DNA of 64,000 nucleotides, from NCBI GenBank assembly GCA_025336685.1, contig GCA_025336685.1_4717.1; one strand, written 5' to 3'. Numbering within the stretch: position 1 is the stretch's first letter; every line of letters starts with the position of its first letter. Position numbers and translations under genes: made by a program. The notes below the pieces were generated by a model. It saw only the letters and a list, made by a program, of their open reading frames with translations, had not been told where the DNA came from and made no database searches. This stretch comes from Escherichia coli. Lineage in GTDB: Bacteria; Pseudomonadota; Gammaproteobacteria; Enterobacterales; Enterobacteriaceae. Below, piece by piece: positions 1 to 63,525 of this stretch.

Positions 1-1
1 C

Positions 2-181
2 GATTCGACGATTGCGCTCGCAGCGATGCCTGCCTGGAAATGTCCGAAATGTAATACCGATATTGCTGACAATCTGCGTGACCAGAAATACTACGATCTG
101 ATTGCTTTGGATGTACCCCAGCTTTTTTTTACCCTAAACTCCGTCCAATCTCTTCAGGAGGGGATGGACGCGGTATTCTAA
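2..181 (+). CDS. partial CDS, 3' end of a gene starting left of the window (contains a CPKC Cys pair)
   Basis: Open frame runs from the window edge to TAA at 179-181; no start codon inside the window. Confidence 0.25.
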   Translation, partial: DSTIALAAMPAWKCPKCNTDIADNLRDQKYYDLIALDVPQLFFTLNSVQSLQEGMDAVF

Positions 182-243
182 TCGATCCGCGATACGGGTT
201 ACACGACGGACAACTTGTTCGTAACGATGAAAAAATCTGGGAA

Positions 244-603
244 TTGCTGTTAGCGCGTAAAGGCGACGGTGGCATGAAACTTAACATCGAAATGGGTATT
301 GCGTACGATACCATGTTTGGCTTGTACGATCGCGTCAGCGACTGGACACCGTTGAAATGGGTTGCTCAGCATCCCGCTGAAGATCCCTGGGACAGATTAG
401 GGATTAAGCCCTTAATCGAGGATTATGTTCGATTCGGTATTAAAGAGTTCATGACGCTGGATGCGTTTTTACAAGCACCGTATCCTTACGCGCAAACGGT
501 ACTCAAAATCGCACAAGACGAACTGCGGAAACGTAGTGCGGTACTGGACGACGATGAGGACAAGTTACGACGAGAAGAAGAACGTTTACGAAACGGAAAA
601 TAA
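244..603 (+). CDS. hypothetical protein (119 aa)
   Basis: Longest ORF in the left 1.1 kb; convergent with the leftward tail module; no recognisable motif. Confidence 0.35.
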   Translation: MLLARKGDGGMKLNIEMGIAYDTMFGLYDRVSDWTPLKWVAQHPAEDPWDRLGIKPLIEDYVRFGIKEFMTLDAFLQAPYPYAQTVLKIAQDELRKRSAVLDDDEDKLRREEERLRNGK

Positions 604-823
604 AATGGCGAGATTTACCAGTTTGATTGGGTTGGATATTTGGGAAACACCGGCCCGTTCGGTTATTCCTGTCAACACCGTCGGTGTGATGGGACATGGT
701 CTTGCCAAGCAGGCGTGATCGTGTGCCCGGTCTTCTTGAAGCGTACCGTAAGCAATGTCGAGATGGGTTTAAGGTGGGTGAAGTCGTATCGTATCAACAT
801 GGTGATAACGATCAACTCACTAC

Positions 824-1105
824 GTGTTGTTTCCATCAAAATCGGATTGGCGTGAAAGGCACGGCGAGTATATCGTTAACGGTTTACTGGCGTTAAAAGC
901 GTGGTTATTGGAGCTTCAGTTCGAAAGAGACGGCTTCTCATGCCGGAGTCCGGCTGAACCGTTGATTGTCGCAATTCCTCCGGTTGGTTCTGGTTGCGGT
1001 AATATCGGTTACGGACAATCTGAAACAATCCAGCCTCAATGGGTACGCGCACAAATCAAACAGTATCTTGCCACCGTGCCGAACGTTCATTTCTACTTGT
1101 TCTAA
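824..1105 (+). CDS. hypothetical protein (93 aa)
   Basis: ORF ends 17 nt before the 1122-1153 hairpin; frame assignment in 600-1105 is ambiguous. Confidence 0.2.
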   Translation: MLFPSKSDWRERHGEYIVNGLLALKAWLLELQFERDGFSCRSPAEPLIVAIPPVGSGCGNIGYGQSETIQPQWVRAQIKQYLATVPNVHFYLF

Positions 1106-1121
1106 TGCAAAGATAGCATAA

Positions 1122-1153
1122 CCCTCCTCCAACCCATCAGGGAAGGAGGAGGG
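1122..1153 (-). terminator. intrinsic terminator hairpin (9-bp CCCTCCTCC/GGAGGAGGG stem, 14-nt loop)
   Basis: Perfect stem 1122-1130/1145-1153 directly downstream of the 1171..1545 gene; minus-strand RNA continues UUAUGCU; sits between convergent genes. Confidence 0.6.
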
Positions 1154-1170
1154 AATATGCTGTTATGCTA

Positions 1171-1545
1171 TTAATGTTCGTTCCAGATGGCATCTTCCGG
1201 TGGAACAATAGGATCTTTCTTCGGCATTGATGGCACTTCATGACGATGTTTACGGAACTGTCCGTCGATAACTTCACGAAGTCGGTACGCATCAACCCAC
1301 GTTGATTTATTGAACAGCTCCAACGTCACAGTTAACCGCGTTCTTGACATTGAATAGCTTTTCTTTGCAATCAAATCGGGATAATTCAGTTGAGCGAACC
1401 ATGCCCGTATTTGTGCTTCGGTAAAAGCGATGCTGTAATAACTAAGTTTACCGTCATTAAAATCGTGCGCGTGGGTGTAACGTCCAGCGTAACGCCAAAC
1501 AAGATGCACATTCAGATCTATCCATGGTGGGGTGGTATCAGCCAT
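1171..1545 (-). CDS. hypothetical protein (124 aa)
   Basis: ORF at the distal end of the leftward tail operon, followed by the terminator hairpin. Confidence 0.5.
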   Translation of the reverse strand: MADTTPPWIDLNVHLVWRYAGRYTHAHDFNDGKLSYYSIAFTEAQIRAWFAQLNYPDLIAKKSYSMSRTRLTVTLELFNKSTWVDAYRLREVIDGQFRKHRHEVPSMPKKDPIVPPEDAIWNEH

Positions 1546-1554
1546 GTGTTACCC

Positions 1555-2124
1555 TCAACGATTTTTCATCACTTTACCCAGGCTTTCGATATTATCCCAA
1601 AAGCGATTTTTACTTGGCGCATCGCCGACGATAACCGACATCAAATCGCGACGTTCACGACTGATGATGCCCTGCGATTTCCAGATCACCATCGTCCAGC
1701 AAGCTGCCAGAACGAACAGGTGGTTAATACTCGGTTTGGTTTGTGCGATGAACGCAAGCCATGCCCAGATACCGGTGTATACTACCGTCACTAAAAAGAG
1801 AGAGATTGTTGCAACGACAACAACGAAGTTTTGGATGGCTGGCTGATTGGCGTTATCCTGAAAAGCGGTAAGATCAGGAAGATTACCTTCAACGGAACTC
1901 GTATCATCGATTTCCAATTCTTCGATTTCTTTTCGTATGTCGGGAGCTAATCCGGCATCATCAAGATGCTTCTTTAACCGCTGAATACTTAATCGTTGAC
2001 CGACAGGGATATTGATGTTGTCGTAACTATTAAGCGCATCAACCAGGGAGCGTCCGTCAACGAGAACCAAGCTCGCAGTACCCATCGTCTGCGGTTTTAT
2101 TTTGTAAAGGTCTTTTACTTTCAT
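1555..2124 (-). CDS. membrane protein (189 aa, two predicted TM helices)
   Basis: Hydrophobic segments FVVVVATISLFLVTVVYTGIWAWLAF and HLFVLAACWTMVIW; ATG preceded by GGAGGTGG. Confidence 0.5.
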   Translation of the reverse strand: MKVKDLYKIKPQTMGTASLVLVDGRSLVDALNSYDNINIPVGQRLSIQRLKKHLDDAGLAPDIRKEIEELEIDDTSSVEGNLPDLTAFQDNANQPAIQNFVVVVATISLFLVTVVYTGIWAWLAFIAQTKPSINHLFVLAACWTMVIWKSQGIISRERRDLMSVIVGDAPSKNRFWDNIESLGKVMKNR

Positions 2125-2145
2125 GTAGACACCACCTCCAACGTG

Positions 2146-4758
2146 TTATACGTCCGGCGTAAAATCAAAAGGAACGTCCGTACGAATGATATCATAACGT
2201 TTTCCTAAGAAATAGAACTCTTCGGGAACCAGACCGGGAATAATGCTATCGCCGATGAACTGTGGGTATGCCCAGATGTACTGAGTGAGTCCTTCGAACA
2301 TATCCAGGTTATTTGCGTGGTTACCCATGATACGTTTCCAGAGTTCGCGTTTATACGGTGTTTTGACATCGAACCCATAAAGCGGTGCGAGGTCTTCGCC
2401 AGGAACAAACCCCAGGTAATAGTGGATCTGACTAACCGGGAACCCAAGCGTATCTCGCGGAATGGTGATCGCTTGCTCGGCCTTGGTGACATGCGTCTCA
2501 ATAATCCAGTCGTAGCACTCCGAATAGAACCGATCGAATTTCTCTGGATTATACCACGCTTTGGGAAGATTCAGTTTCTCCGTGAACGCGTTCGACATGA
2601 TCGTCGGCAAGAACGGAAGAACGCCGGTTTTGATCTGCGTGTATTTCGATTTTACCCGATTGACTAGATTCCAGCAACTGTATCCTAATTGATCGTTGCA
2701 GAACTCAACGTAGAGATCGTAATCCCCACCCGATAATGGATTATTAATATCGCCGATGTCTGCCGCATATTTGTTGGGGTATCGGTTATTGAAAGCCAGT
2801 TTGGTTTGGTAATCGTAAATGCACGGTTTATTGTTCTTCGTGTTAATCCACCACCAGGGTTCACCCACCTGCACACAAATGTCTTGGACATGCGGGTAGA
2901 TGATATCAGCAAACGCGGTTAACACATCCCCTAACCACGCCATCGCGTGTTGGTTGCATGGCGACAACAACCAAGACGGCGGCGTATATCCGGTTGCTGC
3001 TATGTTTCCTTCCCAATCCTGCTGCGCCCACTCGAACGGGCATGCCGTGCTCATCAATTCGTAACTTAAACTGATTGTAACAGAGAAATGGTGTTTTGCA
3101 GCGTATGCGGCGAAAGCTTCATGCCATGCGATACAGGGTGGGTTGAGTACATCTGTGGTGTTCACCAGTAACTTACTCGCACTTGGTGTCCAGACAGTAT
3201 CGTAGAAATGCGACATTCCAACATAGTGCACTAATTCATCTTGATATCCCGCATAAACCAGGTTCTCAAATACGCGTTCCGGCGTGATGTTGTAATGGTC
3301 GTCATAAGCGGTTATCGCACGAAGCTCGTGTGGTGTACATTGGTGACGATTAACCGTCATTTCCTGATACACCCCATCAATAGGAAGAATCTCGAGGGTT
3401 AAACCGAGGTCGATCGGTGTTTCCAGGTAGGTCGTTTCTGTAGCACCTTCCTTATAATGTCGAGAACTCATGCTGAACATCAACGACGTGACCGATTCGA
3501 GTTCGATAGGTTCGTCAGCATAGAACCCCGCCATTGCGTCGTTGAAATCGATCGTTACGATTGCGCTTCTACCATCTTCAGAGACGTCGGTGGCGTATCG
3601 GGTTAATGAGATATACTGACGGCTATCGTCTTTGTGTACGACGGTTAAAACCGGCGGGTTTTCGGTATCCGCAAAGTTACGCTGATCGCCAGTAAACGTG
3701 ATCTTGGCTTTAAAGATCAAACCGAACAACGACGTCATGGGATCATACGCAACACAACCATGATCTAGCGTATCCGTTGTCCGCCATTCTATCCCTACCA
3801 ACCCGTTAGCGGTATGGCATCGCATATACGCATTAAGTGTCATGTCTTCACTGACAACCGCGAAGTTCTCTGTAGATTGACCGTTGATAATCCAATACAT
3901 CGGTTGCCAGAGGTTACGCGTGCCTTTTGCGTAGCGGTAGGTTGGTGCGCCTTTAGGGTTGCCGTTATTGAGATGGAATACAGCCGTACCTTGGTAATGA
4001 TCGTTCGTGTTAATCGGAACACTGTACGCGTCGCCGAGGTCCGTACGTTCGACCTTCGTGACAGTTGCGTTTTCAAACAGCCCACGTAGTGTAGGAAGAC
4101 CAATGTCATCAGGCGCGTTTTCTCGGCGAATCGCGTCCGCGATGCGGTGGGCTAGGGCGGGGTAAATGGTCTCACCCTGCTGTAGGTTTGCAAGACCTAC
4201 AAAGCGATCGGGGTTGATACCAGCAATCAATAACTCGACATCGCCCTTCGTTCTATCGTCATGGAGGTATTTCAGTCCAGTAAGATCAAGATGTTGAATT
4301 AACGACAACAGATTGTACTTACGGTTTTCAACAGTCAGTACAAGATCACCTGCCCAAACCAAACTTCCCTCATCCGCCGTTACTCTAACGGATTGGCGGC
4401 CTGTGGTAGACGTTGTTGTCGTTTTATTTAATTGTCCTTGTAGGAAGTCGGTTGCGAGGTCAAAGGCAACGCCGTAACGGTCAGCGACCGCCTGCATGAT
4501 TTCACGTAACTGGGTATCTTCTTCAATGATGATCTTGACAGGTATTCCCAAGAACGCCTTGGCGAGGTCTCGCTTAACCATCGAGACGAATACGGATTTG
4601 TAATATCGGCCTCCATCTTTCCCTTTAAAAAGAATGGAGGTTGTTTCGGGTGACGATAGAACACGTGCAAATTCAACATCGTCGAAAGTAAGAGAAAGTC
4701 CGTTTTTCTCGTTGGTTAATCTTAGTATTTCATTTTGCGCGGTTTCATGTAACTTCAT
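2146..4758 (-). CDS. tail spike/fibre-like receptor-binding protein (870 aa) with shared N-terminal anchor domain
   Basis: N-terminal ~170 aa (KRDLAKAFLGIPVKI...VWAGDL) paralogous to four other proteins in the window; large distal domain of unknown fold; TGAGG SD. Confidence 0.55.
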   Translation of the reverse strand: MKLHETAQNEILRLTNEKNGLSLTFDDVEFARVLSSPETTSILFKGKDGGRYYKSVFVSMVKRDLAKAFLGIPVKIIIEEDTQLREIMQAVADRYGVAFDLATDFLQGQLNKTTTTSTTGRQSVRVTADEGSLVWAGDLVLTVENRKYNLLSLIQHLDLTGLKYLHDDRTKGDVELLIAGINPDRFVGLANLQQGETIYPALAHRIADAIRRENAPDDIGLPTLRGLFENATVTKVERTDLGDAYSVPINTNDHYQGTAVFHLNNGNPKGAPTYRYAKGTRNLWQPMYWIINGQSTENFAVVSEDMTLNAYMRCHTANGLVGIEWRTTDTLDHGCVAYDPMTSLFGLIFKAKITFTGDQRNFADTENPPVLTVVHKDDSRQYISLTRYATDVSEDGRSAIVTIDFNDAMAGFYADEPIELESVTSLMFSMSSRHYKEGATETTYLETPIDLGLTLEILPIDGVYQEMTVNRHQCTPHELRAITAYDDHYNITPERVFENLVYAGYQDELVHYVGMSHFYDTVWTPSASKLLVNTTDVLNPPCIAWHEAFAAYAAKHHFSVTISLSYELMSTACPFEWAQQDWEGNIAATGYTPPSWLLSPCNQHAMAWLGDVLTAFADIIYPHVQDICVQVGEPWWWINTKNNKPCIYDYQTKLAFNNRYPNKYAADIGDINNPLSGGDYDLYVEFCNDQLGYSCWNLVNRVKSKYTQIKTGVLPFLPTIMSNAFTEKLNLPKAWYNPEKFDRFYSECYDWIIETHVTKAEQAITIPRDTLGFPVSQIHYYLGFVPGEDLAPLYGFDVKTPYKRELWKRIMGNHANNLDMFEGLTQYIWAYPQFIGDSIIPGLVPEEFYFLGKRYDIIRTDVPFDFTPDV

Positions 4759-4780
4759 TGAAAACCTCAGCCCTTTAGAA

Positions 4781-5422
4781 TTAGATGTACTGCTTACCGC
4801 CCACGAAGGAAGTTAGCCAGTTCCCACTGACAAGCTGTGATACCCAGCCAGGCACTGCCCTGCCATTCTGGCTCATGACGTTACCACACCAGCCAGGGAA
4901 TCCGGGACGGATATAATAGAAAGTTAAATTGTAGAGATGGCAATTCCATACCGCAACGTTATGTTTACCAGAAACCGCTTTAAAGACAAACGCAACGGGT
5001 AAAGGCGACGATAACAATTCAGTCACAGGAACGGCTGACCAGTTTGCGTTCGCGTTCCATGGTTGCCAGGTATGGCTACGCGAGTCGCAAAATACGTTAC
5101 CGTTGTTACCGCGCCCACCAGCATGCCACCACAGCGACGGACTCATGTTCTTAAGTGAGGTAAATTGCTGTGGTGGAATATTAGGAATAATAACAGGGTT
5201 GGTACCTTGCCCATGTTTCTTTTCTTTTGCGTTTACATACCCACTTATCGATTCGAGGTATTTGACACCAGGATAATTGTTCTGGACTTGTGTCGCAATA
5301 TCACGGACATCAAACGTCCAGCAGATCATGGTGTTGTAGTAAGCATCGGTGTTGTCGTACCAAGCGTTACCATCTTGTAAACGTGCGCCACTATTCGGTG
5401 TTTTATCTGTGCTTATAGCCAT
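4781..5422 (-). CDS. hypothetical tail-module protein (213 aa) with conserved C-terminal module
   Basis: C-terminal ~45 aa (RPGFPGWxGNVMSQNGRAVPGWVSQLVSGNWLTSFVGGKQY) identical to the next gene; AGGA SD. Confidence 0.5.
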   Translation of the reverse strand: MAISTDKTPNSGARLQDGNAWYDNTDAYYNTMICWTFDVRDIATQVQNNYPGVKYLESISGYVNAKEKKHGQGTNPVIIPNIPPQQFTSLKNMSPSLWWHAGGRGNNGNVFCDSRSHTWQPWNANANWSAVPVTELLSSPLPVAFVFKAVSGKHNVAVWNCHLYNLTFYYIRPGFPGWCGNVMSQNGRAVPGWVSQLVSGNWLTSFVGGKQYI

Positions 5423-5528
5423 GTTATTGTCCTATACTACGATGATTGAGATATCGAATGTCGGACGCTTGGTGCCGTCTGGTAGTACATACAGAAACAC
5501 CCACAGATAAAACAATAACTCCCATCAA

Positions 5529-6194
5529 TTAAATTGATGTTAGATACTGCTTACCTCCGACAAACGATGTCAACCAGTTCCCACTGACGAGCTGTGATAC
5601 CCAGCCAGGCACTGCCCTACCGTTCTGGCTCATCACATTACCCGCCCATCCCGGAAAACCAGGTCGGAAAATATATACTTGAATATGTGTTAAAGCGTTA
5701 TCATTACCTCCACCAACAGCAACATTACGACGTCCGGATGATGGGAAATATTCTTTTAAGAACAGGGGATCGTTTGCCAATAAAGAAGCGGGCCAAGGAT
5801 TAGCGGATGCGTCAACATCGAATTCGGTCCATCGCCATTTGCGTCCGGTATCGAACCAGGTTGACGTACCACCGCCACGCACCGCAAGATTGCGTGCATC
5901 ACGGGCACTGTATATTGATTCGATGTTTCGCCACCCACCTTTTGCGGCGTTTGCCGCATAGCAAATCGCATTACCACCATTCTTCTTTTCGTAAACGGTT
6001 CGTTTGATATGAACACGGTCGATAAACGCTTCACCGTATTTGTTGACGAGTGTTTGCGCGATATCACGAAGATCGTGCATATGAAAGGCGATGTCTTCGT
6101 TGTGGAACCACGTTGTCGGGTTCCAAACGGTGCCGTTTGGTTCGGCACACATCGATCGGATATTGTTGCGTTGATTAATCGCGATAAAGCCCAT
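5529..6194 (-). CDS. hypothetical tail-module protein (about 221 aa), paralog of 4781..5422
   Basis: Same C-terminal module with different N-terminal region; start chosen at internal ATG 6192-6194 with GAGG SD (ORF track extends to 6257 through the terminator). Confidence 0.5.
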   Translation of the reverse strand: MGFIAINQRNNIRSMCAEPNGTVWNPTTWFHNEDIAFHMHDLRDIAQTLVNKYGEAFIDRVHIKRTVYEKKNGGNAICYAANAAKGGWRNIESIYSARDARNLAVRGGGTSTWFDTGRKWRWTEFDVDASANPWPASLLANDPLFLKEYFPSSGRRNVAVGGGNDNALTHIQVYIFRPGFPGWAGNVMSQNGRAVPGWVSQLVSGNWLTSFVGGKQYLTSI

Positions 6195-6246
6195 GGTCCA
6201 CCTCGTTCCTGTTCTCGAAGGAAATTTCATACGATGACGCCATAAC

Positions 6247-6303
6247 AGCTCCCCCATCCTCCCAACCCGTAAGGGAAGGGAGGATGTAAGGGAAGGAGGA
6301 GCT
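6247..6303 (-). terminator. nested GC-rich hairpin terminator
   Basis: Inner stem CATCCTCCC/GGGAGGATG (6255-6263/6278-6286) with loop AACCCGTAAGGGAA, enclosed by AGCTCC/GGAGCT; downstream of the lipoprotein gene. Confidence 0.5.
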
Positions 6304-6309
6304 ATTTAA

Positions 6310-6813
6310 TTACTGGCTGACAACCTCAACGGAACTGGGATCGGCGATCAGCGCACGGTCGGTAGAACAATTGAAGAAGACCATGCCAACACCATCACCG
6401 TTCGAGTTCAGGGTTGAACTTACGTAAGACAATGTTGGTTTATTCATACGGTAGAAGCGTTCGTTGGTGGTGGTATTGAACCCCAGATCAACGTAGTCTT
6501 TCACCGTGGTGTACAACTGTGTGGACTCGAAAACGGTTACCGGAGAGTCAACGGTAAACTGACTACCTTCGTCCACTACCAGAACTTTATCGTTCCAGAT
6601 TTCAGTGGTTGAGAACTTCGGTTTCCAGTGTTCGAATTCCTGGGTTGCTCCCCAGCAGGAATACACAGCGAGATCGCTGTTCTTCTCAACAGGTTTTAAC
6701 CCCACCAGTTGTGTCAGGCCTTTATCCAGATTCGGTAAGCCTTCCAGTGTAGCACACCCACCCAGAGAAAGTACCATCAACATACCGAGAATAATCGCGC
6801 AAAGTTTCTTCAT
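6310..6813 (-). CDS. putative lipoprotein (167 aa)
   Basis: N-terminal MKKLCAIILGMLMVLSLGGC: signal peptide with lipobox-like LGGC; AAGGA SD. Confidence 0.55.
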   Translation of the reverse strand: MKKLCAIILGMLMVLSLGGCATLEGLPNLDKGLTQLVGLKPVEKNSDLAVYSCWGATQEFEHWKPKFSTTEIWNDKVLVVDEGSQFTVDSPVTVFESTQLYTTVKDYVDLGFNTTTNERFYRMNKPTLSYVSSTLNSNGDGVGMVFFNCSTDRALIADPSSVEVVSQ

Positions 6814-6857
6814 CGTCGGATTTCCTTATGTGTTAACGGAAGTGATTTCCATAGTAA

Positions 6858-7273
6858 TTACACAGTTTTAGGAAATTCCGGCCAATCGATATTTGGCGCG
6901 GCGTCGGTATCGATAGCCGTCACCTCGTCAATGTAATCCAAAACAGCATTAAGTTGGGCTGTTTCTTCCGGAGTCAGTTTTCGCCCGGCCCGTAATTTTA
7001 ACTGAATAAGATCAATGGAAGCCAGCGCAGAGTCAATCAGAGATTTTTTCATCTGTTCTGCCTCGGCGACGAGATCTTCGTGTTGCCGCTCGGGTTCCGG
7101 AGGTGCGGTAAACTCACCATTTGAGTATAACCAACCTATTCCAGGCGACACAGCTCCCGTATCGCTAATGCTGACCAACTGTTGATTGTCAGATACATCG
7201 AGCTCTGCTTCGCCATCGTAAACAATCGTGTTTACTACCACCCCATTTTCAATAACAGCGTATGATGTACTCA
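6858..7273 (-). CDS. tail fibre assembly protein (chaperone)
   Basis: Lies immediately after the long fibre gene; start ATG overlaps the fibre stop (ATGTAATGAGT); C-terminal region resembles phage Tfa chaperones. Confidence 0.55.
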
Positions 7274-10200
7274 TTACATAAACTCCTCGATGATGCAAAT
7301 CCCGTCAGCGCCACGCCCGCCACGCATAACGGTTCCAGTGTAACCGTTATCGTAAGCGCCGCCGCCCGAACCTCGTGCGAGGCCGTTTGACCCACCGCCA
7401 ACAGCTGCGCGACCACCGCCACCCCAATATGACGCACCCCCACCACCACATACAGGAAATGCGCCAGCCTGACCGTCATCACCATCACCACCTGAAATGC
7501 GTATATCCCCGGTACTAGGTACACCACCACCCCCACCGCCAGTGTTTGTGACAGTTGTTTTTCCTGCGCCTTGCCCACCGGGAGCAGTCAGCAGGGATGC
7601 AAATTTACTATCCCCGCCCCTGTTTCCAACTGTTGCCCCGGAACCACCAGTGCCACCAGAACCAATTACAACAGAATAACTAGTAGCCGCTACCGTTATA
7701 ACCGAAATTACTGTTGCCCCGGCCCCACCGCCAGCACCAAAAAACGTTTCGCTGTTGGAAAAAGCCTGGCAACCACCACCGCCGCCTCCACCACCGGTTA
7801 ATATTACTCTAATCCGTTTTGTTCCTTGTGTTGGGGTGTACGTCCCTGACGATGTGAAAACACGCATGTTCAGTAAACGTCCGACATATCCACTAGAATC
7901 GGCTAAACCAAGATCTTTAGCTGCTAACGTGATATTAGCTGTGCCATCGAAAGGTTTACCGTTAATCGTGCGTGCCGTCTGCAGCTTCGTGGCCGTTGCT
8001 GCGTTTCCTGACGTATTCTGGTTTCCCGCGGCGTTAACACCTGGTAGATTGATGTTCGCACTACCGTCGAAAGACACCCCACCAATGGTGCGGGCTGTCT
8101 TCAGTTTTGTCGCCGTGGCGGCATTACCGGTCGTGTCTTGGTTACCGGTGGTGTTTACCCCAGGTAGGTTGATATTGGCTGTTCCGTTAAATGAAACACC
8201 ACCAATCGTCCTTGCTGTTTGCAACTTCGTTGCGGATGCCGCATTCCCCGTGGTGTTTTGGTTACCTGTTGCATTCACGCCTGGGATGCTATCCTTAGAT
8301 GTGTAGATCTGTGCCCATTCCGACCAGTTCGAATCGGCCGCATCACGACGTGAACGTAGGTAAGCTGGAGCGTGTGCGCCTGAGGTACCTGACCACCCAA
8401 TGAGGATTTCACCTTCACCGACCGATGAAGCCCCTTTAAGATGAATGATGTTACCATAAGCGGTGGGATATCCGTTATTGTACGCTTCATACATCTGGAT
8501 GCCCGCATTGCTGCCCTGAGCCGTGTTAGCTAAGGCCGTAACACGACCTTTGGAAGCGAGAGCGTTAATACTGAAGCTAATATCCTTAGTACCGTCAAAG
8601 GCGACCCCATTAATCTTCCGTGCTGTTTGGAGTTTCGTAGCAGTAGCCGCATTACCAGAGGTACTCTGATTACCTGCTTTGTTCACGCCCGGTAAATCAA
8701 TGTTGGCTGTTCCATCAAAGGACACACCCCCTATGGTTCTCGCTGTCTGGAGTTTTGTTGCTGAACCAGCGTTTCCAGAAGTGCTTTGATTACCTGCCGC
8801 GTTGACACCCGGTAGGTCAATGCTAGCAGAACCATCAAAAGAAACTCCACCGATCGTGATCGGTGTTTTCAATTTCGTGGCTGTCGCAGCATTACCCGTC
8901 GTATTCTGATTGCCAGCAGCATTAACACCAGGTAATGCGATATCGGTCGTACCATCGAACGCAACACCACCGACTTTACGGGCGGTCTGTAGCTTGGTCG
9001 CTGTAGCCGCGTTGCCGCTGGTATTTTGCGTGCCTGCTTTATTTACGCCAGGCAAATCAATGTTCGCAGTACCATCAAAAGAAACACCCCCGATGGTTCT
9101 CGCGGTCTCAAGTTTGGTTGCGCTTCCTGCGTTTCCGCTGGTGCTTTGATTTCCCGCTGCATCAACACCTGGTAGATTGATGCTGGCCGAACCATCGAAA
9201 CTCACACCACCGATAGTAACAGCGGTTTTCAACTTCGTCGCCGTTGCTGCGTTACCGGTTGTATTTTGATTGCCTGTCGCATTAACGCCCGGTAATGCAA
9301 TATCCGCTGTTCCGTCAAAGGCAACGCCACCGATTCTACGTGCAGTTTGTAGCTTGGTTGCACTAGCAGCGTTACCGCTGGTATTCTGGGTGCCAGCTTT
9401 GTTAACACCGGGGAGATCGATATTAGCAGAACCATCGAAGCTGACGCCACCTATCGTTCTTGCAGTATCGAGTTTAGCTGCTGTGGCTGCATTATTACCC
9501 ACTTTCAGCCAATCATCCCATGGACCATCCTGGCCGTTCCATGATGCCGTTAAACTACGTACGTAAATATTGCCGGTACGTACAGTGTAACGTTGCGTTC
9601 CACCGAATTGTCCGGCAGGGAGCACTTCAAGGTAACCTGCAGCATTTGCTTCAGGGAAATTGTGGGCGACGTCCGCGTTCGTTGATACTGGTTTAGACCA
9701 AATACCCACAGACACTTCAACCGGACCGTAAGTATTCAGATTTGCGTCGGTGGGGAGCTGTCCTCGAAAACGTTGGAATTGTGTCGCCGATAACCCCAAC
9801 GTTGTTTGCATGCTTTCAATGCTGGATTGCTGAAGTAACGTCCGTGCTGTCGATGTAATCACGGTAAGCGCAACTTTATTAACACCGGTGAAATACGGGA
9901 GTTTGTCTGCTGATGTCGCTAAACCTGAAAAGGCGGTCAGTAATGCGTTAAGGGGCTGCTTCCCAGCTAACGCATTTGTTACCGTCGTTGCGAAATTAGG
10001 ATCGCTTCCTATAGCTCGAGCCAGCTTATTAAGCGTATTTAGCGTCGCTGGTGACGAGTCGATCAGCGCCGTGATCGCACGCATCACAAATTCCGTGTTG
10101 GCTATCTGTCGACTGCTATTGTTAACTGCTGCGGTGGGCGCTGCTGGCGTACCAGTGAATACAGGGCTATTAAGATCCGCCTTGAGGGCGATGAGACGTT

Positions 10201-11149
10201 TAAGCGCTTCAACATCGACTTTCAGGTTTTCCCATCCGATGAGAGAACCACCACTGTTGGCATGGTAACGGTTGTACCAGAAGTCACCGTTAACGCCTAA
10301 AAAGAATATTCCCTTCTCTTCGTTTTGTGGGCCGGAACTATTTCGTGATGCGCTGATATATTTGATTTTAATAATACCGTTAAACACCACTCCTGGGATT
10401 ATTTCGCTGCTTCCAGCTAACTGTGATACTTGGTAAATCCCCGGGGTCGCAGCTTTAACCCATGTTAAGAATTCTGTTACTCCGGCGTTACCACTGAAAT
10501 TCTTAACGTCGGTAAGTATCGCACCATAACCGAACATACCGGGCAGAGCAACTCGTCCGTTGGTACGGTCACGAATATTTGATGCGATTACAGGTAGCTG
10601 TTTACGAACATTATTAACCGCCTTAGGTGTGGCCGATTTTGTCTCATCGTCGCTATCGATGGCGTTGCTCAGGATGGTCAGCCCTCGCTTAGCAGTAGTT
10701 GCATCAGGAAGAAATGCGTTATCCAACACCTTAAGCTGTATTGCACTCGTATTACTAACAACGACATGCATCTGACAGTTAAGAACGCTGGTTGCGCCTT
10801 CGGTAGGCATAGGCTTATATCTTTCTGGTGCACTGCAGACGGCAATCAGAACACCCTTGTCGTCGTACAGACCGATCTCACGTACCCAGAACCCACCTTG
10901 ACTGGCAGGAATAATACCCTCAACGACAATCCTGGTTGTACTATCGCCATCCGCATGGATATTAGAAACTTCCCCACGATAAACTTCGTGAACAAGCGCT
11001 GTTTGGCTGGCGGTCGGGGTTGGTGTCGAGCCGTTACCATCACCAACGGCAAAGTGTGTGATTTTTAGTTTCTCACCGTCGGGAAGTAACGCAGCGGTGA
11101 TACGTTCTGCTCCTTTATCGGTAACTACCGTTTTATATGCTGTACTCAT
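7274..11149 (-). CDS. long tail fibre protein (about 1291 aa from internal Met; ORF track 1318 aa)
   Basis: About 12 degenerate ~34-aa repeats (TARTIGGVSFDGTANIDLPGVNxAGNQNTSGNAATATKLQ) typical of phage fibres; Gly-rich C-terminal domain; likely start MSTAYKTVV at 11147-11149. Confidence 0.8.
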   Translation of the reverse strand: MSTAYKTVVTDKGAERITAALLPDGEKLKITHFAVGDGNGSTPTPTASQTALVHEVYRGEVSNIHADGDSTTRIVVEGIIPASQGGFWVREIGLYDDKGVLIAVCSAPERYKPMPTEGATSVLNCQMHVVVSNTSAIQLKVLDNAFLPDATTAKRGLTILSNAIDSDDETKSATPKAVNNVRKQLPVIASNIRDRTNGRVALPGMFGYGAILTDVKNFSGNAGVTEFLTWVKAATPGIYQVSQLAGSSEIIPGVVFNGIIKIKYISASRNSSGPQNEEKGIFFLGVNGDFWYNRYHANSGGSLIGWENLKVDVEALKRLIALKADLNSPVFTGTPAAPTAAVNNSSRQIANTEFVMRAITALIDSSPATLNTLNKLARAIGSDPNFATTVTNALAGKQPLNALLTAFSGLATSADKLPYFTGVNKVALTVITSTARTLLQQSSIESMQTTLGLSATQFQRFRGQLPTDANLNTYGPVEVSVGIWSKPVSTNADVAHNFPEANAAGYLEVLPAGQFGGTQRYTVRTGNIYVRSLTASWNGQDGPWDDWLKVGNNAATAAKLDTARTIGGVSFDGSANIDLPGVNKAGTQNTSGNAASATKLQTARRIGGVAFDGTADIALPGVNATGNQNTTGNAATATKLKTAVTIGGVSFDGSASINLPGVDAAGNQSTSGNAGSATKLETARTIGGVSFDGTANIDLPGVNKAGTQNTSGNAATATKLQTARKVGGVAFDGTTDIALPGVNAAGNQNTTGNAATATKLKTPITIGGVSFDGSASIDLPGVNAAGNQSTSGNAGSATKLQTARTIGGVSFDGTANIDLPGVNKAGNQSTSGNAATATKLQTARKINGVAFDGTKDISFSINALASKGRVTALANTAQGSNAGIQMYEAYNNGYPTAYGNIIHLKGASSVGEGEILIGWSGTSGAHAPAYLRSRRDAADSNWSEWAQIYTSKDSIPGVNATGNQNTTGNAASATKLQTARTIGGVSFNGTANINLPGVNTTGNQDTTGNAATATKLKTARTIGGVSFDGSANINLPGVNAAGNQNTSGNAATATKLQTARTINGKPFDGTANITLAAKDLGLADSSGYVGRLLNMRVFTSSGTYTPTQGTKRIRVILTGGGGGGGGCQAFSNSETFFGAGGGAGATVISVITVAATSYSVVIGSGGTGGSGATVGNRGGDSKFASLLTAPGGQGAGKTTVTNTGGGGGGVPSTGDIRISGGDGDDGQAGAFPVCGGGGASYWGGGGRAAVGGGSNGLARGSGGGAYDNGYTGTVMRGGRGADGICIIEEFM
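7905..8285 (-). repeat. coding tandem repeats, block B (about 3 units) inside the long fibre gene
   Basis: Same ~34-aa unit after a ~100-aa non-repeat spacer. Confidence 0.55.
8575..9485 (-). repeat. coding tandem repeats, block A (about 9 units of ~102 bp) inside the long fibre gene
   Basis: Repeated GGVSFDG...LPGVN...TGNAATATKL units read from the translation; DNA copies are diverged. Confidence 0.6.
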
Positions 11150-11156
11150 GGTGTTT

Positions 11157-11684
11157 TTATCCTGGATAAATAGTGATGATATCACCAATGACCGTTGTGG
11201 CACCGGCGTAAAGATGAGCCGGAGATACATCGTGTTGGTTTGTCACGGTAAGATCCAATCGACCACGCCAAACCATGGAGGTATTCGCGATGGGGATAGA
11301 AATCTTTTTGGATATATCGTCACGAAAATCAATAACAGTGGCAAGGGTAACTGTATCAAAGTCAACGTCGGGGTCAAAGACGAACCCGTATTGATCTGAA
11401 ATCGCCCGAATAATCGCGTGTATAGTTGTTGTCTTAACAGACTCTAAAACGATTTTTATTGGTATTCCTAGAAATGCCTTCGCAATATCGCGTCGAGCGT
11501 AAACGATAAAACTTTCACCGTTCCACCTTGTTCCTTCATTTGCTGTGACGATCACTTTTGCCCTGTTAGCACCAGAACTTCCATCCAAGACTAATGTAAG
11601 ATCGGAGCTGTTGAATACGCTACTGTTACGTCTGTTTATCAACGACGTCAGTTCGTCTTTCCATGGCGGGTAAAGTGAACACAT
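11157..11684 (-). CDS. free-standing anchor-domain protein (about 175 aa) upstream of the long fibre
   Basis: Paralog of the N-terminal domain of the 870/590/503-aa proteins (YARRDIAKAFLGIPIKI); start MCSLYPPWKDEL with GGAGGAGGG SD. Confidence 0.5.
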   Translation of the reverse strand: MCSLYPPWKDELTSLINRRNSSVFNSSDLTLVLDGSSGANRAKVIVTANEGTRWNGESFIVYARRDIAKAFLGIPIKIVLESVKTTTIHAIIRAISDQYGFVFDPDVDFDTVTLATVIDFRDDISKKISIPIANTSMVWRGRLDLTVTNQHDVSPAHLYAGATTVIGDIITIYPG

Positions 11685-11797
11685 ATGTGCACCCTCCTCC
11701 AACATAACCAGATTAAATATATATTTCTTAAACGTGGGACACGATTCGAGATAAACGTTAACGGTCTTAACGACCGCATAAAATTCCGCGCATATTA

Positions 11798-11829
11798 CCC
11801 CTCTATCCCGACAAAGCGAGATAGAGGGG
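11798..11829 (-). terminator. intrinsic terminator hairpin (10-bp stem)
   Basis: CCCCTCTATC/GATAGAGGGG perfect stem with 12-nt loop, 12 nt downstream of the 590-aa gene stop. Confidence 0.6.
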
Positions 11830-11841
11830 AGGATAATACGA

Positions 11842-13596: not shown

Positions 13597-13614
13597 AAGC
13601 ACTCCAAAGTTCAT

Positions 13615-13631
13615 GGGGCGGTAACCGCCCC
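13615..13631 (-). other. short GC hairpin in the 22-nt spacer between two tail genes
   Basis: GGGGCGG-TAA-CCGCCCC perfect 7-bp stem; no U-tract follows, so attenuator or RNA-processing element rather than a clean terminator. Confidence 0.4.
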
Positions 13632-13636
13632 GTTGG

Positions 13637-17233: not shown

Positions 17234-17246
17234 TATTTACTCCGCC

Positions 17247-18077: not shown

Positions 18078-18162
18078 GCTGACCTCATAGATGATCGTTG
18101 ATAGGAAAGAGACCTAATTCATACCATGGGAACCTCAAAAAAAAAACAAAAAATAGGAAAAC

Positions 18163-18190
18163 GGTGCTCATCCCTAAAAGGATGAGCACC
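18163..18190 (-). terminator. rho-independent terminator
   Basis: Perfect 11-bp stem GGTGCTCATCC/GGATGAGCACC, loop CTAAAA, followed on the minus strand by a long U-tract (plus-strand A-run 18137-18160). Confidence 0.8.
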
Positions 18191-18211
18191 GCGTACCGTT
18201 ATATCGAATGA

Positions 18212-19536: not shown

Positions 19537-19654
19537 TTCCTATTCCTCAAACAAATGATTGTCTTTTACGCGACATGATTACAAGTACACAGGTTACTGA
19601 ATTTCTGTAAGAATTAATTTTCGTAAACTAAAAGAAAATGTATCCGTGTTTCCT

Positions 19655-19691
19655 GGTTCTTCCCCTCCACAGCCTCAGGAAGAGAAGAACC
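19655..19691 (-). terminator. terminator hairpin
   Basis: Stem GGTTCTTC/GAAGAACC around a CCTCC-containing loop, after the 82-aa gene; minus-strand RNA continues U-rich. Confidence 0.5.
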
Positions 19692-19711
19692 GTTTGCTAA
19701 GTTGTTATGTA

Positions 19712-19960: not shown

Positions 19961-20014
19961 GGTGATTTCCTTCTTTATTAGGATGATTACATTTAGTCAG
20001 TTTAACAGCATAAA

Positions 20015-20039
20015 CCCTTCCTGCTTTACGCAGGAAGGG
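20015..20039 (-). terminator. intrinsic terminator hairpin
   Basis: CCCTTCCTGC/GCAGGAAGGG perfect 10-bp stem, loop TTTAC, followed on the minus strand by UUUAUGCUG. Confidence 0.7.
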
Positions 20040-20053
20040 CATACGGATTTGTT

Positions 20054-26850: not shown

Positions 26851-26873
26851 TTTGTTTCCTTTTATCAGCATAA

Positions 26874-26894
26874 ACCCTCCCATACCGGGAGGGT
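26874..26894 (-). terminator. intrinsic terminator hairpin
   Basis: ACCCTCCC/GGGAGGGT stem, 5-nt loop, followed on the minus strand by UUUAUGCUG. Confidence 0.6.
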
Positions 26895-32940: not shown

Positions 32941-32999
32941 ATTGTCGTTTCCTCCATACGAAACCAAAAAATTGTCAAAATGTACATCGGCATAACACC

Positions 33000-33027
33000 C
33001 GTGTCCGCCCGCGATGGGAGGGACACG
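33000..33027 (-). terminator. terminator-like hairpin
   Basis: CGTGTCC...GGACACG outer stem with inner CCC/GGG pairing, between the 210-aa gene and the membrane-protein gene. Confidence 0.45.
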
Positions 33028-33047
33028 AGCAATACGCTTTTATTTCT

Positions 33048-43146: not shown

Positions 43147-43268
43147 CTCGTCGTAAAAGTAAATAGAGTTTTGTCGAGACGCCCTAATTACTTACAACGT
43201 AGGTTCTCCTGGCTTCAGAGAATTCTTAAAATCCGTTAGTTTTGATAGATAGGATAAGACGGCATAAA

Positions 43269-43289
43269 AGCCTCCCATTACGGGAGGCT
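43269..43289 (-). terminator. intrinsic terminator hairpin
   Basis: AGCCTCCC/GGGAGGCT 8-bp stem, loop ATTAC, followed on the minus strand by UUUUAUGCCG. Confidence 0.65.
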
Positions 43290-44844: not shown

Positions 44845-44866
44845 GTTAACCTCAATACGAACATAA

Positions 44867-44898
44867 CCCTCCTCCTTCCCTGATGGGTTGGAGGAGGG
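44867..44898 (-). terminator. intrinsic terminator hairpin, loop-inverted copy of the 1122-1153 element
   Basis: Same 9-bp CCCTCCTCC/GGAGGAGGG stem and flanks (cataa ... aatatgct) as 1122-1153, but the 14-nt loop is the reverse complement. Confidence 0.6.
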
Positions 44899-44907
44899 AA
44901 TATGCTA

Positions 44908-45222
44908 TTATTCTGCTTTAGGCGATGAACCGTTCTTTTTGAAGTCGGATTCGTATTTCACGTTAGAATCGAGAACCTCACGAACGGTTTTATCCGTACA
45001 ACCACGGGCGATGTATGCATTAAGATCGTCGCGTAATTTACGCATTGTTGTTTTATCCGCATCAGAAACATCTGACTTGGTAAGACGGAACGCAATCGCA
45101 TCACGAATTTTATTCAACATTGCTGGGTTATTACGCTGTTCTGCAAATACCGCTTTGATGAACTTATCGCTATCTTTCGAAGCGATGGCTGCATCAAGAA
45201 TCTCAATATGCTTTTCAGACAT
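44908..45222 (-). CDS. hypothetical protein (104 aa)
   Basis: ORF, no motif. Confidence 0.4.
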   Translation of the reverse strand: MSEKHIEILDAAIASKDSDKFIKAVFAEQRNNPAMLNKIRDAIAFRLTKSDVSDADKTTMRKLRDDLNAYIARGCTDKTVREVLDSNVKYESDFKKNGSSPKAE

Positions 45223-51288: not shown

Positions 51289-51314
51289 AGCAGGTACCGG
51301 TAACGCGGCATAAA

Positions 51315-51332
51315 CCCTCCCCGAAGGGAGGG
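51315..51332 (-). terminator. intrinsic terminator hairpin
   Basis: CCCTCCC-CGAA-GGGAGGG followed on the minus strand by UUUAUGCCG. Confidence 0.6.
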
Positions 51333-51342
51333 CGGTTAATGA

Positions 51343-53240: not shown

Positions 53241-53276
53241 CTCCTCCCCACACCTTTCCAGGGGAGGAGTTTTATC
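53241..53276 (+). terminator. plus-strand terminator-like hairpin in the leader of the SNF2 gene (attenuator or small-RNA terminator)
   Basis: CTCCTCCCC/GGGGAGGAG 9-bp stem, 11-nt loop, followed by TTTTATC; sits 30 nt upstream of the SNF2 start. Confidence 0.45.
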
Positions 53277-53304
53277 ATACTTTTCTATTAATTCGAGCGC
53301 GATT

Positions 53305-55391: not shown

Positions 55392-55419
55392 AAGCTCTGT
55401 CTGATGTCAGACAGAGCTT
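55392..55419 (+). terminator. intrinsic terminator hairpin (13-bp stem)
   Basis: AAGCTCTGTCTGA/TCAGACAGAGCTT perfect stem after the SNF2 stop, followed by TATGCCGTGTTTGTT. Confidence 0.65.
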
Positions 55420-55485
55420 TATGCCGTGTTTGTTACAAAATCGTATGGCGTATATGCGTTGTACTTATTAAATAGGACAGAATAC

Positions 55486-56937: not shown

Positions 56938-56956
56938 AAAAAAATAGTTAGCATAT

Positions 56957-56989
56957 CTTCCTCCCTACCCATAACGGGCGGGGAGGAAG
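56957..56989. terminator. bidirectional terminator between convergent genes
   Basis: CTTCCTCCC/GGGAGGAAG stem with 15-nt loop; A9 run on one side and TTTATG on the other gives a U-tract on both strands. Confidence 0.65.
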
Positions 56990-57006
56990 GTTTATGTGGC
57001 TATGAC

Positions 57007-62512: not shown

Positions 62513-62626
62513 AATCTCATTTCCTCTTATACGTTAGGATAGATGACATGTTGGATATACGTTGCCTTTGCATATATTGCTTTATTTCCGTCAGAAATAA
62601 CGGAAAATAAAAACAACGACATAGTT

Positions 62627-62656
62627 CCCTCCCACCTCCACACGGGAGAGGGAGGG
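62627..62656 (-). terminator. intrinsic terminator hairpin
   Basis: CCCTCCC/GGGAGGG stem with nested CTCC/GGAG pairing, followed on the minus strand by a U-rich run. Confidence 0.55.
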
Positions 62657-63416: not shown

Positions 63417-63496
63417 ACCAGGGATCCTCTTTTTAAGTCTTCACATTCTAGTGTTAAGCAGTTAAAATAAACCGTCCCTTTAATCAGCATAAACAT

Positions 63497-63525
63497 CCTC
63501 CTCCCACCACATGGGTAGGAGGAGG
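63497..63525 (-). terminator. intrinsic terminator hairpin
   Basis: CCTCCTCC/GGAGGAGG 8-bp stem, 13-nt loop, followed on the minus strand by AUGUUUAUGCUG. Confidence 0.6.

What the first reader, a model, noticed from the sequence alone, without database searches (positions are those of the whole stretch)
1122..1153. Family of CCUCC/GGAGG-stem terminators with a conserved UUUAUGCYG tail
At least 12 intergenic hairpins have stems built from CCTCC/GGAGG units. Many are followed on the transcribed strand by (U)UUAUGC(U/C)G, for example at 20015, 26874, 43269, 51315, 55392 and 63497. That is more conserved than a generic U-tract needs to be, so the tail may double as a processing site or promoter element, or the terminators may have spread as a repeat family.
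Basis: seen in the sequence. Interest (0 to 1): 0.45.

Follow-up and report, generated by a model that had tools for sequence, protein, structure and literature searches.

The report
PhiKZ-type terminators in Goslar-like phage
These hairpins are the conserved transcription stop signals already mapped by experiment in the giant phages phiKZ and 201phi2-1, found here in an E. coli relative (Goslar-like); the conserved UAUG tail is where transcripts end, not where they start.

Summary
The window is about 93% identical to E. coli jumbo phage Goslar (Chimalliviridae). It holds 13-14 intergenic hairpins with C-rich 5' arms and G-rich 3' arms (-16 to -27 kcal/mol). Fifteen hairpin strands carry the tail: 1-5 nt, then an invariant TATG, then C/Y/G. 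Enrichment is strong (P about 3e-11).

The tail lies on the transcribed strand in same-direction gene pairs and on both strands between convergent genes. Its ATG is not a start codon.

The element matches the published phiKZ terminator consensus BCCYCCCCHWWDGGGRRGGBYTTATKYYGT (Putzeys 2024). One window copy is nearly identical to the terminator after the phiKZ capsid gene.

Re-analysis of published phiKZ end maps gave two results:
- RNA 3' ends fall inside TATGYY, 3-8 nt after the stem.
- None of 20 such terminators has a transcription start on its tail TATG, although 8 have a separate promoter 10-47 nt downstream.

In IMG/VR, the same 18-nt hairpin is followed by TATG in jumbo-sized contigs and mostly by U-tracts or unrelated sequence in small phages.

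Verdict: a new member of a known terminator family. The promoter and processing readings are not supported. Spread as a repeat holds for one pair only.

One open point is that TATG is also the initiator motif of the phage RNA polymerase.

The parts
1112..1169 (.). Bidirectional terminator between convergent genes. Hairpin 1122-1153; + strand tail AATATGCTGTTATGCT (1154-1169); - strand tail TTATGCTATC (1121-1112).
   Evidence: Goslar annotates the orthologous site as a putative terminator. The stem shows compensatory changes against Goslar.
6241..6300 (-). Long CCTCC-type hairpin of the same sub-family, with a CCC-TTAC-GGG inner stem, followed by GCTGTTATGG. A variant member.
11776..11829 (-). 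Terminator: hairpin 11798-11829 (13 bp), tail TAATATGCGCGG, then a second TTTTATGC.
20006..20040 (-). Terminator: hairpin GCCCTTCCTGC-GTAAA-GCAGGAAGGGT plus tail TTATGCTG.
   Evidence: (z = -7.8).
26866..26894 (-). Terminator: ACCCTCCC-GGTAT-GGGAGGGT plus tail TTATGCTG.
   Evidence: The TTATGC core is kept while the flanking bases differ in Goslar.
32988..33030 (-). Terminator: GCTCGTGTCC..CCC/GGG..GGACACGGGTG plus tail TTATGCCG.
43260..43289 (-). Terminator: AGCCTCCC-GTAAT-GGGAGGC plus tail TTTTATGCCG. Matches the rigid published phiKZ consensus with 2 mismatches.
   Evidence: Annotated as a putative terminator in Goslar.
44858..44914 (.). Two-sided terminator, a paralogous copy of the 1117-1169 cassette. 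Hairpin 44867-44898; - strand tail TTATGTTCG; + strand tail AATATGCTATTATTCT.
   Evidence: D6, I2.
51306..51333 (-). Terminator: GCCCTCCC-TTCG-GGGAGGGT plus tail TTATGCCG. The hairpin is the same as the phiKZ terminator after the major capsid gene.
53241..53280 (+). CCTCC-type hairpin with a variant tail TTTTATCATAC (TATC, not TATG), in a divergent intergenic region. Membership is uncertain.
   Evidence: Goslar annotates it as a putative terminator. The loop is inverted relative to Goslar.
55392..55426 (+). Terminator with a non-CCTCC stem (AAGCTCTGTCTGA/TCAGACAGAGC) but the family tail TTTATGCCG.
   Evidence: One compensatory stem change against Goslar; the Goslar tail is TTCATGCTG.
56947..56999 (.). 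Bidirectional terminator between convergent genes. Hairpin 56955-56991; + strand tail TTATGTGG; - strand tail ATATGCTAAC.
62617..62656 (-). Terminator: CCCTCCCTCTCC..GGAGGTGGGAGGG plus tail AACTATGTCG.
63485..63525 (-). Terminator: CCTCCTCCTACC-CATGT-GGTGGGAGGAGG plus tail ATGTTTATGCTG.
19655..19691 (-). Y-rich/R-rich 14-bp hairpin with no TATG tail (AGGAAACACGG). It has the family's type of stem but is not a full member.

Best explanation
These are factor-independent transcription terminators of the conserved type used by phiKZ-like nucleus-forming jumbo phages (Chimalliviridae). They are found here in a close relative of E. coli phage Goslar.

Proposed mechanism:
- The nascent RNA folds into a very stable hairpin, with a C-rich 5' arm and a G-rich 3' arm, placed 5-25 nt after a stop codon.
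- The polymerase is then sitting on the short tail, N(1-3)-UAUG-Y-Y-G.
- The transcript is released inside that tail, either at UAU|G or one to two bases after the G.
- At convergent gene pairs the palindromic stem carries a tail on each side and stops transcription from both directions.

The tail takes the place of the long U-tract of host-type terminators. It is a specific sequence requirement of the phage's own multisubunit RNA polymerases.

Basis of each step:
- Shown here: the anatomy, enrichment, strand logic and conservation, and the identity with the phiKZ motif.
- Shown in the literature for phiKZ: RNA 3' ends map in the tail.
- Shown in the literature for 201phi2-1: eight of its terminators stop transcription in a reporter trap.
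- Inferred: the same holds in this phage, and the TATG requirement comes from the phage polymerase.
For: Phage identity:
- The window is 93.5% identical to Goslar.
- It encodes a jumbo-phage RNAP beta subunit (phrog_3015, E = 2.6e-169).

Anatomy and enrichment:
- Fifteen hairpin strands have a 1-5 nt spacer, an invariant TATG, then C/Y/G; P = 2.6e-11.
- Stabilities are -16 to -27 kcal/mol. Twelve of 14 folded sites have z below -2.8; the other two are -1.8 and -1.9.

Strand logic:
- In same-direction contexts the tail is on the transcribed strand in 9 of 9 sites and on the other strand in 1 of 9.
- At the convergent sites 1122 and 56955 it is on both strands.

Conservation against Goslar:
- Stems show compensatory changes at 1122, 55392 and 18161.
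- The TTATGC core is kept while neighbouring bases change at 26874, 32996 and 51314.

Match to phiKZ:
- Published consensus: 5'-BCCYCCCCHWWDGGGRRGGBYTTATKYYGT-3', from 61 ONT-cappable-seq terminators (PMC10914365).
- The dominant terminator motif of 201phi2-1 resembles it (PMC11512511).
- The phiKZ capsid-gene terminator GCCCTCCCTTCGGGGAGGGCTTTATGTTG compares with window 51306-51333, GCCCTCCCTTCGGGGAGGGTTTATGCCG.
- 36 Y-rich hairpin strands with a TATG or TATT tail occur in 100 kb of phiKZ.

Published phiKZ end maps placed on the real sequence:
- 3' ends fall at TAT|G in 4 terminators and at TATGY| or TATGYY| in 10. That is 3-8 nt after the stem.

Specificity to jumbo phages:
- For the identical hairpin CCCTCCCTTCGGGGAGGG in IMG/VR, a TATG tail is present in 13 of 17 instances from contigs of 200 kb or more, against 5 of 104 from smaller contigs (Fisher P = 1.7e-10). 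The smaller contigs mostly carry U-tracts or unrelated sequence.
- The T4 control has no Y-rich-5'-arm hairpins, and its terminator hairpins are followed by U-tracts.

Function in vivo:
- Eight 201phi2-1 terminators gave termination activity in a reporter trap.
Against: - There are no transcript-end data for Goslar or this phage. Function here rests on homology of a short motif.
- ONT 3' ends cannot by themselves separate true termination from exonuclease trimming back to a hairpin.
- The window prefers TATG-C where phiKZ prefers TATG-T.
- Some hairpins lack the tail (19655) or carry a variant (53241: TATC). In Goslar the 55392 site reads CATG. TATG is therefore not absolutely required.
- A classical long-U terminator coexists at 18161-18192, so these polymerases, or the host enzyme, also meet ordinary terminators.
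Confidence: 0.8

Rival explanations
1. Dual terminator-promoter. The TATG of the tail is also a late promoter for the non-virion RNA polymerase. That enzyme initiates at the G of T(-3)ATG(+1), so transcription would restart for the next gene right at the stop signal.
For: - TATG is the necessary late-promoter motif of the phiKZ nvRNAP, with G as +1 (PMC4666361). [quoted passage not shown]
- In the window, every same-direction site has a downstream gene 18-117 nt from the tail G.
- TATG is 2.3-fold enriched in upstream regions.
Against: - In phiKZ, none of 20 terminators of this family has a mapped TSS on the tail TATG. Eight have a separate TSS 10-47 nt downstream, of early, middle or late class. 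Examples are P075 and P049, which sit on a second TATG.
- The tail is kept at convergent sites, where a promoter would only make antisense RNA.
- The validated late promoter P119L has no upstream hairpin.
- A GC-rich stem directly upstream should hinder DNA melting. This last point is an inference.
Confidence: 0.08
2. RNA processing or stability element. The hairpin plus UAUG is a cleavage or trimming stop site, for RNase E or a 3' exonuclease, that defines and protects mRNA 3' ends. It would not be a site of polymerase release.
For: - ONT-mapped 3' ends 3-8 nt after a stable stem are also what exonuclease trimming would leave.
- Stable 3' hairpins are known to protect mRNAs (general knowledge).
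Against: - Eight cloned 201phi2-1 terminators reduce downstream reporter expression in a terminator trap.
- An invariant TATG is not the RNase E preference (general knowledge).
- The same hairpin carries a TATG tail in jumbo-sized phage contigs and mostly U-tracts or unrelated sequence in small phages. That points to the polymerase rather than to shared host RNases.
Confidence: 0.08
3. Mobile or duplicating repeat family (REP- or MITE-like) that spread through intergenic regions, with terminator activity being incidental.
For: - 1117-1169 and 44862-44914 are a 53-nt paralogous pair. Their flanks are identical and their interior is inverted (D6 and I2).
- 6255-6286 shares the same inner stem.
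- The interiors at 44867 and 53241 are flipped between the window and Goslar.
Against: - The other 11-12 sites share only the motif-level pattern, with different stems, loops and lengths. There are no shared flanks, target duplications or transposase.
- Position right after stop codons, strand-specific tails, and conservation of the pattern from Pseudomonas phages to E. coli phages all argue for selection on function.
Confidence: 0.04

Closest known systems
Conserved intrinsic terminator motif of Pseudomonas phage phiKZ (Putzeys et al. 2024, Microlife; 5'-BCCYCCCCHWWDGGGRRGGBYTTATKYYGT-3')
   Same: - C-rich 5' arm and G-rich 3' arm, with a short loop.
- A spacer of 1-3 nt, then TATG/K, then Y-Y-G.
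- Placement right after stop codons.
- Two-sided versions at convergent genes.
- Some hairpins are identical (CCCTCCC-TTCG-GGGAGGG).
   Different: - Different host (E. coli) and genus (Goslarvirus-like).
- The base after TATG is mostly C here and mostly T in phiKZ.
- Several window copies have longer two-tier stems (CCTCCTCC plus an inner CCC/GGG).
- No end mapping exists for this phage.
Terminator motif A (and A/B combinations) of Pseudomonas phage 201phi2-1 (PMC11512511)
   Same: - Its authors describe motif A as strongly resembling the phiKZ terminator motif.
- Elongated stems where two motifs co-occur, like the two-tier stems seen here.
- Eight 201phi2-1 terminators were shown to terminate in a reporter trap.
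   Different: I did not see the 201phi2-1 motif sequences themselves, because the supplement is not held. The comparison is indirect, through phiKZ.
Canonical bacterial intrinsic (Rho-independent) terminators, e.g. those of E. coli and phage T4
   Same: A GC-rich hairpin followed by a weak RNA:DNA hybrid, with release a few nucleotides after the stem.
   Different: - The tail is a defined word (TATG-Y-Y-G), sometimes with only two U, instead of a 7-9 nt U-run.
- Arm polarity is fixed (C-rich arm first). In the T4 control no stem has a Y-rich first arm and many have an R-rich one, and terminator tails are U-tracts.
phiKZ late promoter T(-3)ATG(+1) recognised by nvRNAP (Yakunina 2015; gp123 pocket, IUCrJ 2026)
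   Same: The same four bases, TATG, on the non-template strand.
   Different: - Promoter TATGs have no upstream hairpin.
- Mapped starts avoid the terminator-tail TATGs.
- The tail also conserves Y-Y-G, which promoters do not.

Membership tests
phiKZ-type conserved intrinsic terminator (Chimalliviridae) | Stem-loop with a C/Y-rich 5' arm (CCYCCCC) and a G/R-rich 3' arm (GGGRRGG) | tested here: met
   13-14 loci, at -16 to -27 kcal/mol. One site, 55392, has a different stem.
phiKZ-type conserved intrinsic terminator (Chimalliviridae) | Tail (B)YTTATKYYGT immediately 3' of the stem | tested here: met
   TATG in 15/15 aligned strands, followed by C/T, Y, G. 43259-43288 matches the rigid consensus with 2 mismatches. 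The other copies differ mainly in loop length.
phiKZ-type conserved intrinsic terminator (Chimalliviridae) | Intergenic position downstream of a stop codon on the transcribed strand; two-sided at convergent genes | tested here: met
   The tail is on the transcribed strand in 9 of 9 same-direction sites, and on both strands at 1122 and 56955.
phiKZ-type conserved intrinsic terminator (Chimalliviridae) | The genome encodes phiKZ-like multisubunit RNA polymerases | tested here: met
   Window 59875-61881 matches phrog_3015, RNAP beta subunit, E = 2.6e-169. The closest relative, Goslar, is a chimallivirus.
phiKZ-type conserved intrinsic terminator (Chimalliviridae) | RNA 3' ends map in the tail during infection | not testable with these tools
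   Shown for phiKZ only, by re-analysis of Tables S3/S4. No transcript data are available for this phage.
phiKZ nvRNAP late promoter (TATG, G = +1) | A mapped transcription start at the G of TATG | tested here: not met
   Tested by proxy in phiKZ: 0 of 20 family terminators have a TSS on the tail TATG. Not testable directly in this phage.
Canonical U-tract intrinsic terminator | A U-rich run (at least 5 U in 8) after the stem | tested here: not met
   The consensus scan found none of the family sites in 1-20000. Tails such as AAUAUGCU and AACUAUGU have 2-3 U. Only 18161-18192 is canonical.
Rfam RNA families | A match at the family's gathering score | tested here: not met
   0 matches in the whole window.

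The most novel reading that the evidence does not exclude
The terminator tail and the late promoter may share TATG because the same pocket reads both. That pocket lies under the beta-lobe of the phage RNA polymerase (gp123 in phiKZ) and holds non-template-strand TATG at initiation.

In elongation, capture of TATG just after a hairpin would pause the enzyme in the initiation register, with the RNA ending UAU and the next base G. The hairpin could then release the transcript.

Termination in chimalliviruses would then be partly sequence-specific and polymerase-encoded, not only thermodynamic.

Observations that fit this reading:
- TATG stays invariant even where the flanking U are replaced by A.
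- The switch between TATG and U-tract tails tracks jumbo-sized against small phage contigs.
- Four of 14 mapped phiKZ 3' ends lie exactly at TAT|G.

No held paper makes this link.
Probability: 0.25. Interest if true: 0.65.

Novelty: new member of a known kind. Interest (0 to 1): 0.3.

Why it matters
- Annotation. It gives a ready rule, C-rich/G-rich hairpin plus TATGYY, for marking transcription-unit ends in Goslar and other E. coli chimalliviruses. These are the working models for phage-nucleus biology and have no published transcript map.
- A probable annotation error. At least one Goslar start codon, Goslar_00111, was called on the ATG of a terminator tail.
- Engineering. It supplies compact terminators that should work with the phage polymerases.
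- Breadth. The motif holds from Pseudomonas phages to E. coli phages, and it replaces the U-tract only in jumbo-sized contigs. This suggests that chimallivirus polymerases have their own termination code, which is testable with the purified phiKZ enzyme.

Tried and rejected
- **Start-codon reading.** I tested whether GGAGG plus the ATG of the tail acts as a ribosome site and start codon. Fifteen of 16 tail ATGs open ORFs of only 3-31 codons. Rejected.
- **Covariance model.** MAFFT followed by RNAalifold on the 15 instances gave no consensus structure, because loop lengths and two-tier stems misalign. I built no covariance model and used a descriptor-style scan instead.
- **Rigid consensus search.** The published IUPAC consensus with 3 mismatches found only one site, because of loop-length variation.
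- **Sigma-70 and U-tract scan.** It does not detect these elements.
- **gp123 homologue.** I looked for one in the window to check the TATG-binding pocket. The 668-aa RNAP subunit is not gp123-like by BLASTP. Dropped.
- **Crude T4 control.** 'TATG after any hairpin' gave 5 of 30, which looked high. Several of these are start codons of the next gene or lie on the non-transcribed strand. The control is meaningful only for Y-rich stems, of which T4 has 0.
- **Missing sources.** The PMC copies of the two ONT-cappable-seq papers hold no supplements, so I used the bioRxiv version. Ceyssens 2014 is not held.
- **Promoters without a hairpin.** After removing the hairpin sites, 19 TATG remain in upstream regions against 12 expected. 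That is too weak to call promoters.

Full report
**What the window is.** The first 6 kb match Escherichia phage vB_EcoM_Goslar at 93.5% identity. Goslar is a nucleus-forming jumbo phage (genus Goslarvirus, family Chimalliviridae). The window corresponds to roughly 92-156 kb of Goslar and is mostly transcribed on the minus strand. It encodes a jumbo-phage RNA polymerase beta subunit at 59875-61881 (phrog_3015, E = 2.6e-169). Five of the hairpins discussed below are already labelled 'putative transcriptional terminator' in the Goslar GenBank record.

**Checking the observation.**
- The flagged 1122-1153 is a two-tier hairpin, CCCTCCTCC / inner CCC-ATCA-GGG / GGAGGAGGG. It lies between convergent genes.
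- Folding every intergenic region, plus a hairpin scan, gave 14 loci whose stems have a pyrimidine-rich (CCTCC-like) 5' arm and a purine-rich (GGAGG-like) 3' arm.
- Stabilities are -16 to -27 kcal/mol. Twelve of the 14 folded sites have z below -2.8; the other two are -1.8 and -1.9.
- TTTATGCYG occurs 8 times against 1.09 expected.
- Aligned on TATG, 15 hairpin strands show a 1-5 nt spacer and an invariant TATG, then C (12/15), Y (13/15) and G (10/15).
- Twelve of 38 Y-rich hairpin strands have TATG in the tail, against a background chance of 0.022 (P = 2.6e-11).
- Unbiased k-mer counting of upstream regions recovers CCTCCC/GGGAGG and TTATGC(C) as the leading words that are not Shine-Dalgarno-like.
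- The spacer is AA, TAA or AAC at four sites. The conserved element is therefore the word TATG, not a U-run.

**Anatomy and context.**
- The hairpins start 5-25 nt after the stop codon of the upstream gene.
- In same-direction gene pairs the tail is on the transcribed strand in 9 of 9 sites and on the opposite strand in 1 of 9.
- At the convergent pairs 1122 and 56955 there is a tail on each strand. The sequence upstream of the stem there reads CATA/GCATA.
- The ATG inside the tail is not a start codon. Fifteen of 16 open reading frames from it stop after 3-31 codons.
- Against Goslar, stems show compensatory double changes at 1122-1153, 55392-55417 and the classical terminator 18161-18192.
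- At 26874, 32996 and 51314 the TTATGC core is unchanged while the bases on either side differ.
- Only one pair is truly paralogous: 1117-1169 and 44862-44914, 53 nt with identical flanks and an inverted interior.

**What it is.** Putzeys et al. (2024, PMC10914365) mapped transcript ends in phiKZ by ONT-cappable-seq. They reported that 61 predicted intrinsic terminators share 5'-BCCYCCCCHWWDGGGRRGGBYTTATKYYGT-3', a hairpin 'followed by a 5'-TTAT-3' region'. The dominant terminator motif of 201phi2-1 is described by its authors as strongly resembling it. Eight 201phi2-1 terminators stopped transcription in a reporter trap (PMC11512511).

The window elements are the same thing:
- 43259-43288 matches the rigid consensus with two mismatches.
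- The phiKZ terminator after the major capsid gene reads GCCCTCCCTTCGGGGAGGGCTTTATGTTG. Window 51306-51333 reads GCCCTCCCTTCGGGGAGGGTTTATGCCG.
- My scan of 100 kb of phiKZ finds 36 Y-rich hairpin strands with TATG or TATT tails.

**Terminator, promoter or both?** TATG is also the essential late-promoter motif of the phiKZ non-virion polymerase, with G as +1 (PMC4666361). It is held in a pocket of the beta-like subunit gp123 (PMC12809450).

The bioRxiv version of Putzeys et al. holds Tables S3 and S4. I placed the phiKZ TTS and TSS coordinates on the real sequence for 1-50 kb and 100-150 kb.
- For 14 hairpin+TATG terminators, the mapped 3' end is at TAT|G in four and at TATGY| or TATGYY| in ten. 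That is 3-8 nt after the stem. RNA ends therefore fall inside the conserved tail.
- None of 20 family terminators has a TSS on its tail TATG.
- Eight have a distinct TSS 10-47 nt further downstream, of early, middle or late class. An example is T064 at 145649 followed by P075 at 145659, on a second TATG.
- Fifteen of 22 late TSS lie on other TATGs. These include P119L, which has no hairpin.
- Tails are retained at convergent sites, where no gene lies downstream.

Together these results support the terminator reading and argue against the promoter reading. What is common is a terminator followed shortly by a separate promoter.

**Is the tail specific to these phages?**
- I scanned IMG/VR for the bare hairpin CCCTCCCTTCGGGGAGGG, with no tail in the query. 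A TATG tail on at least one strand is present in 13 of 17 instances from contigs of 200 kb or more, but in 5 of 104 from smaller contigs (Fisher P = 1.7e-10). The smaller phages mostly carry U-tracts or unrelated sequence.
- Phage T4 uses host polymerase. In the 50 kb examined it has no Y-rich-first hairpins, and its terminator hairpins are followed by U-tracts.
- The tail therefore tracks the jumbo-phage transcription machinery, not the host.

**Mechanism.** The most likely mechanism is intrinsic termination. The hairpin forms in the nascent RNA while the polymerase sits on a short weak hybrid (UUAU) followed by G-Y-Y, and release occurs in that window.
- Shown: the sequence anatomy, the strand logic, the conservation, and (in phiKZ) the positions of the ends.
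- Inferred: the same happens in this phage, and TATG is a requirement of the phage enzyme.
- An untested extension: the gp123 pocket that reads TATG at promoters could also capture it during elongation and pause the enzyme at UAU|G, the register of four of the 14 mapped ends. I found no paper that makes this link.

**Rivals.**
- Dual promoter: disfavoured.
- Processing or trimming site: cannot be excluded from end maps alone, but the reporter-trap data and the jumbo-specific tail argue against it.
- Mobile repeat: only one duplicated pair.
- Start codon: rejected.
- No Rfam family matches.

**Verdict.** The element is a new member, in an E. coli Goslar-like phage, of a terminator family already described and experimentally mapped in phiKZ and 201phi2-1. 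It is ordinary for this phage family, and the interest is modest. The one point worth an experiment is the shared TATG between stop and start signals.

Noticed in passing
window 44867-44898 and 53241-53269, compared with Goslar 134585-134616 and 142889-142917: The interior of the hairpin (loop plus inner stem) is reverse-complemented between the window and Goslar, while the outer CCTCC/GGAGG arms are unchanged. These are small hairpin-mediated inversions or replacement by another copy.
   Followed up: partly
window 43243-43252, 43882-43892 and 44521-44528 (minus strand): The word CTATCTATCA / ACTATCTA recurs 15-25 nt downstream of terminator hairpins in three neighbouring intergenic regions. 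It may be a phage promoter element (compare the phiKZ early motif TCTATATTAC).
   Followed up: no
window 5529-6257 (-) and 11842-13614 (-): Two ORFs of 242 aa and 590 aa have no counterpart at the syntenic positions in Goslar. The second lies among tail-fibre genes, so this relative may differ from Goslar in host-recognition genes.
   Followed up: no
window 26869-26871; Goslar 117666: The annotated start codon of Goslar_00111 is the ATG inside the terminator tail TTATGC. A second in-frame ATG with an AAGGAAA ribosome site lies 21 nt downstream. The start was probably mis-called.
   Followed up: partly
window 7932-9479: Seven diverged copies of a repeat, mostly spaced 120 nt apart, lie inside the 1318-aa tail-fibre gene (7274-11230).
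   Followed up: no
window 18140-18192 (-): A classical terminator with a 14-bp stem and a long U-run lies between two structural-gene blocks. Not all stops in this phage use the TATG tail. A TATG follows about 50 nt downstream of the stem, 43 nt upstream of the next start codon.
   Followed up: partly
window 53241-53280 (+): A CCTCC-type hairpin sits in a divergent intergenic region upstream of the helicase gene, with tail TTTTATCATAC (TATC, not TATG). No gene ends there, so its role is unclear. It could be a 5'-UTR attenuator or a stop for antisense transcripts.
   Followed up: no
phiKZ (L004, L005), e.g. 23527-23544 and 29350-29367: In phiKZ many terminators between same-direction genes carry a TATG tail on the non-coding strand as well (GATATG...). 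This suggests routine two-way termination of antisense transcription.
   Followed up: no
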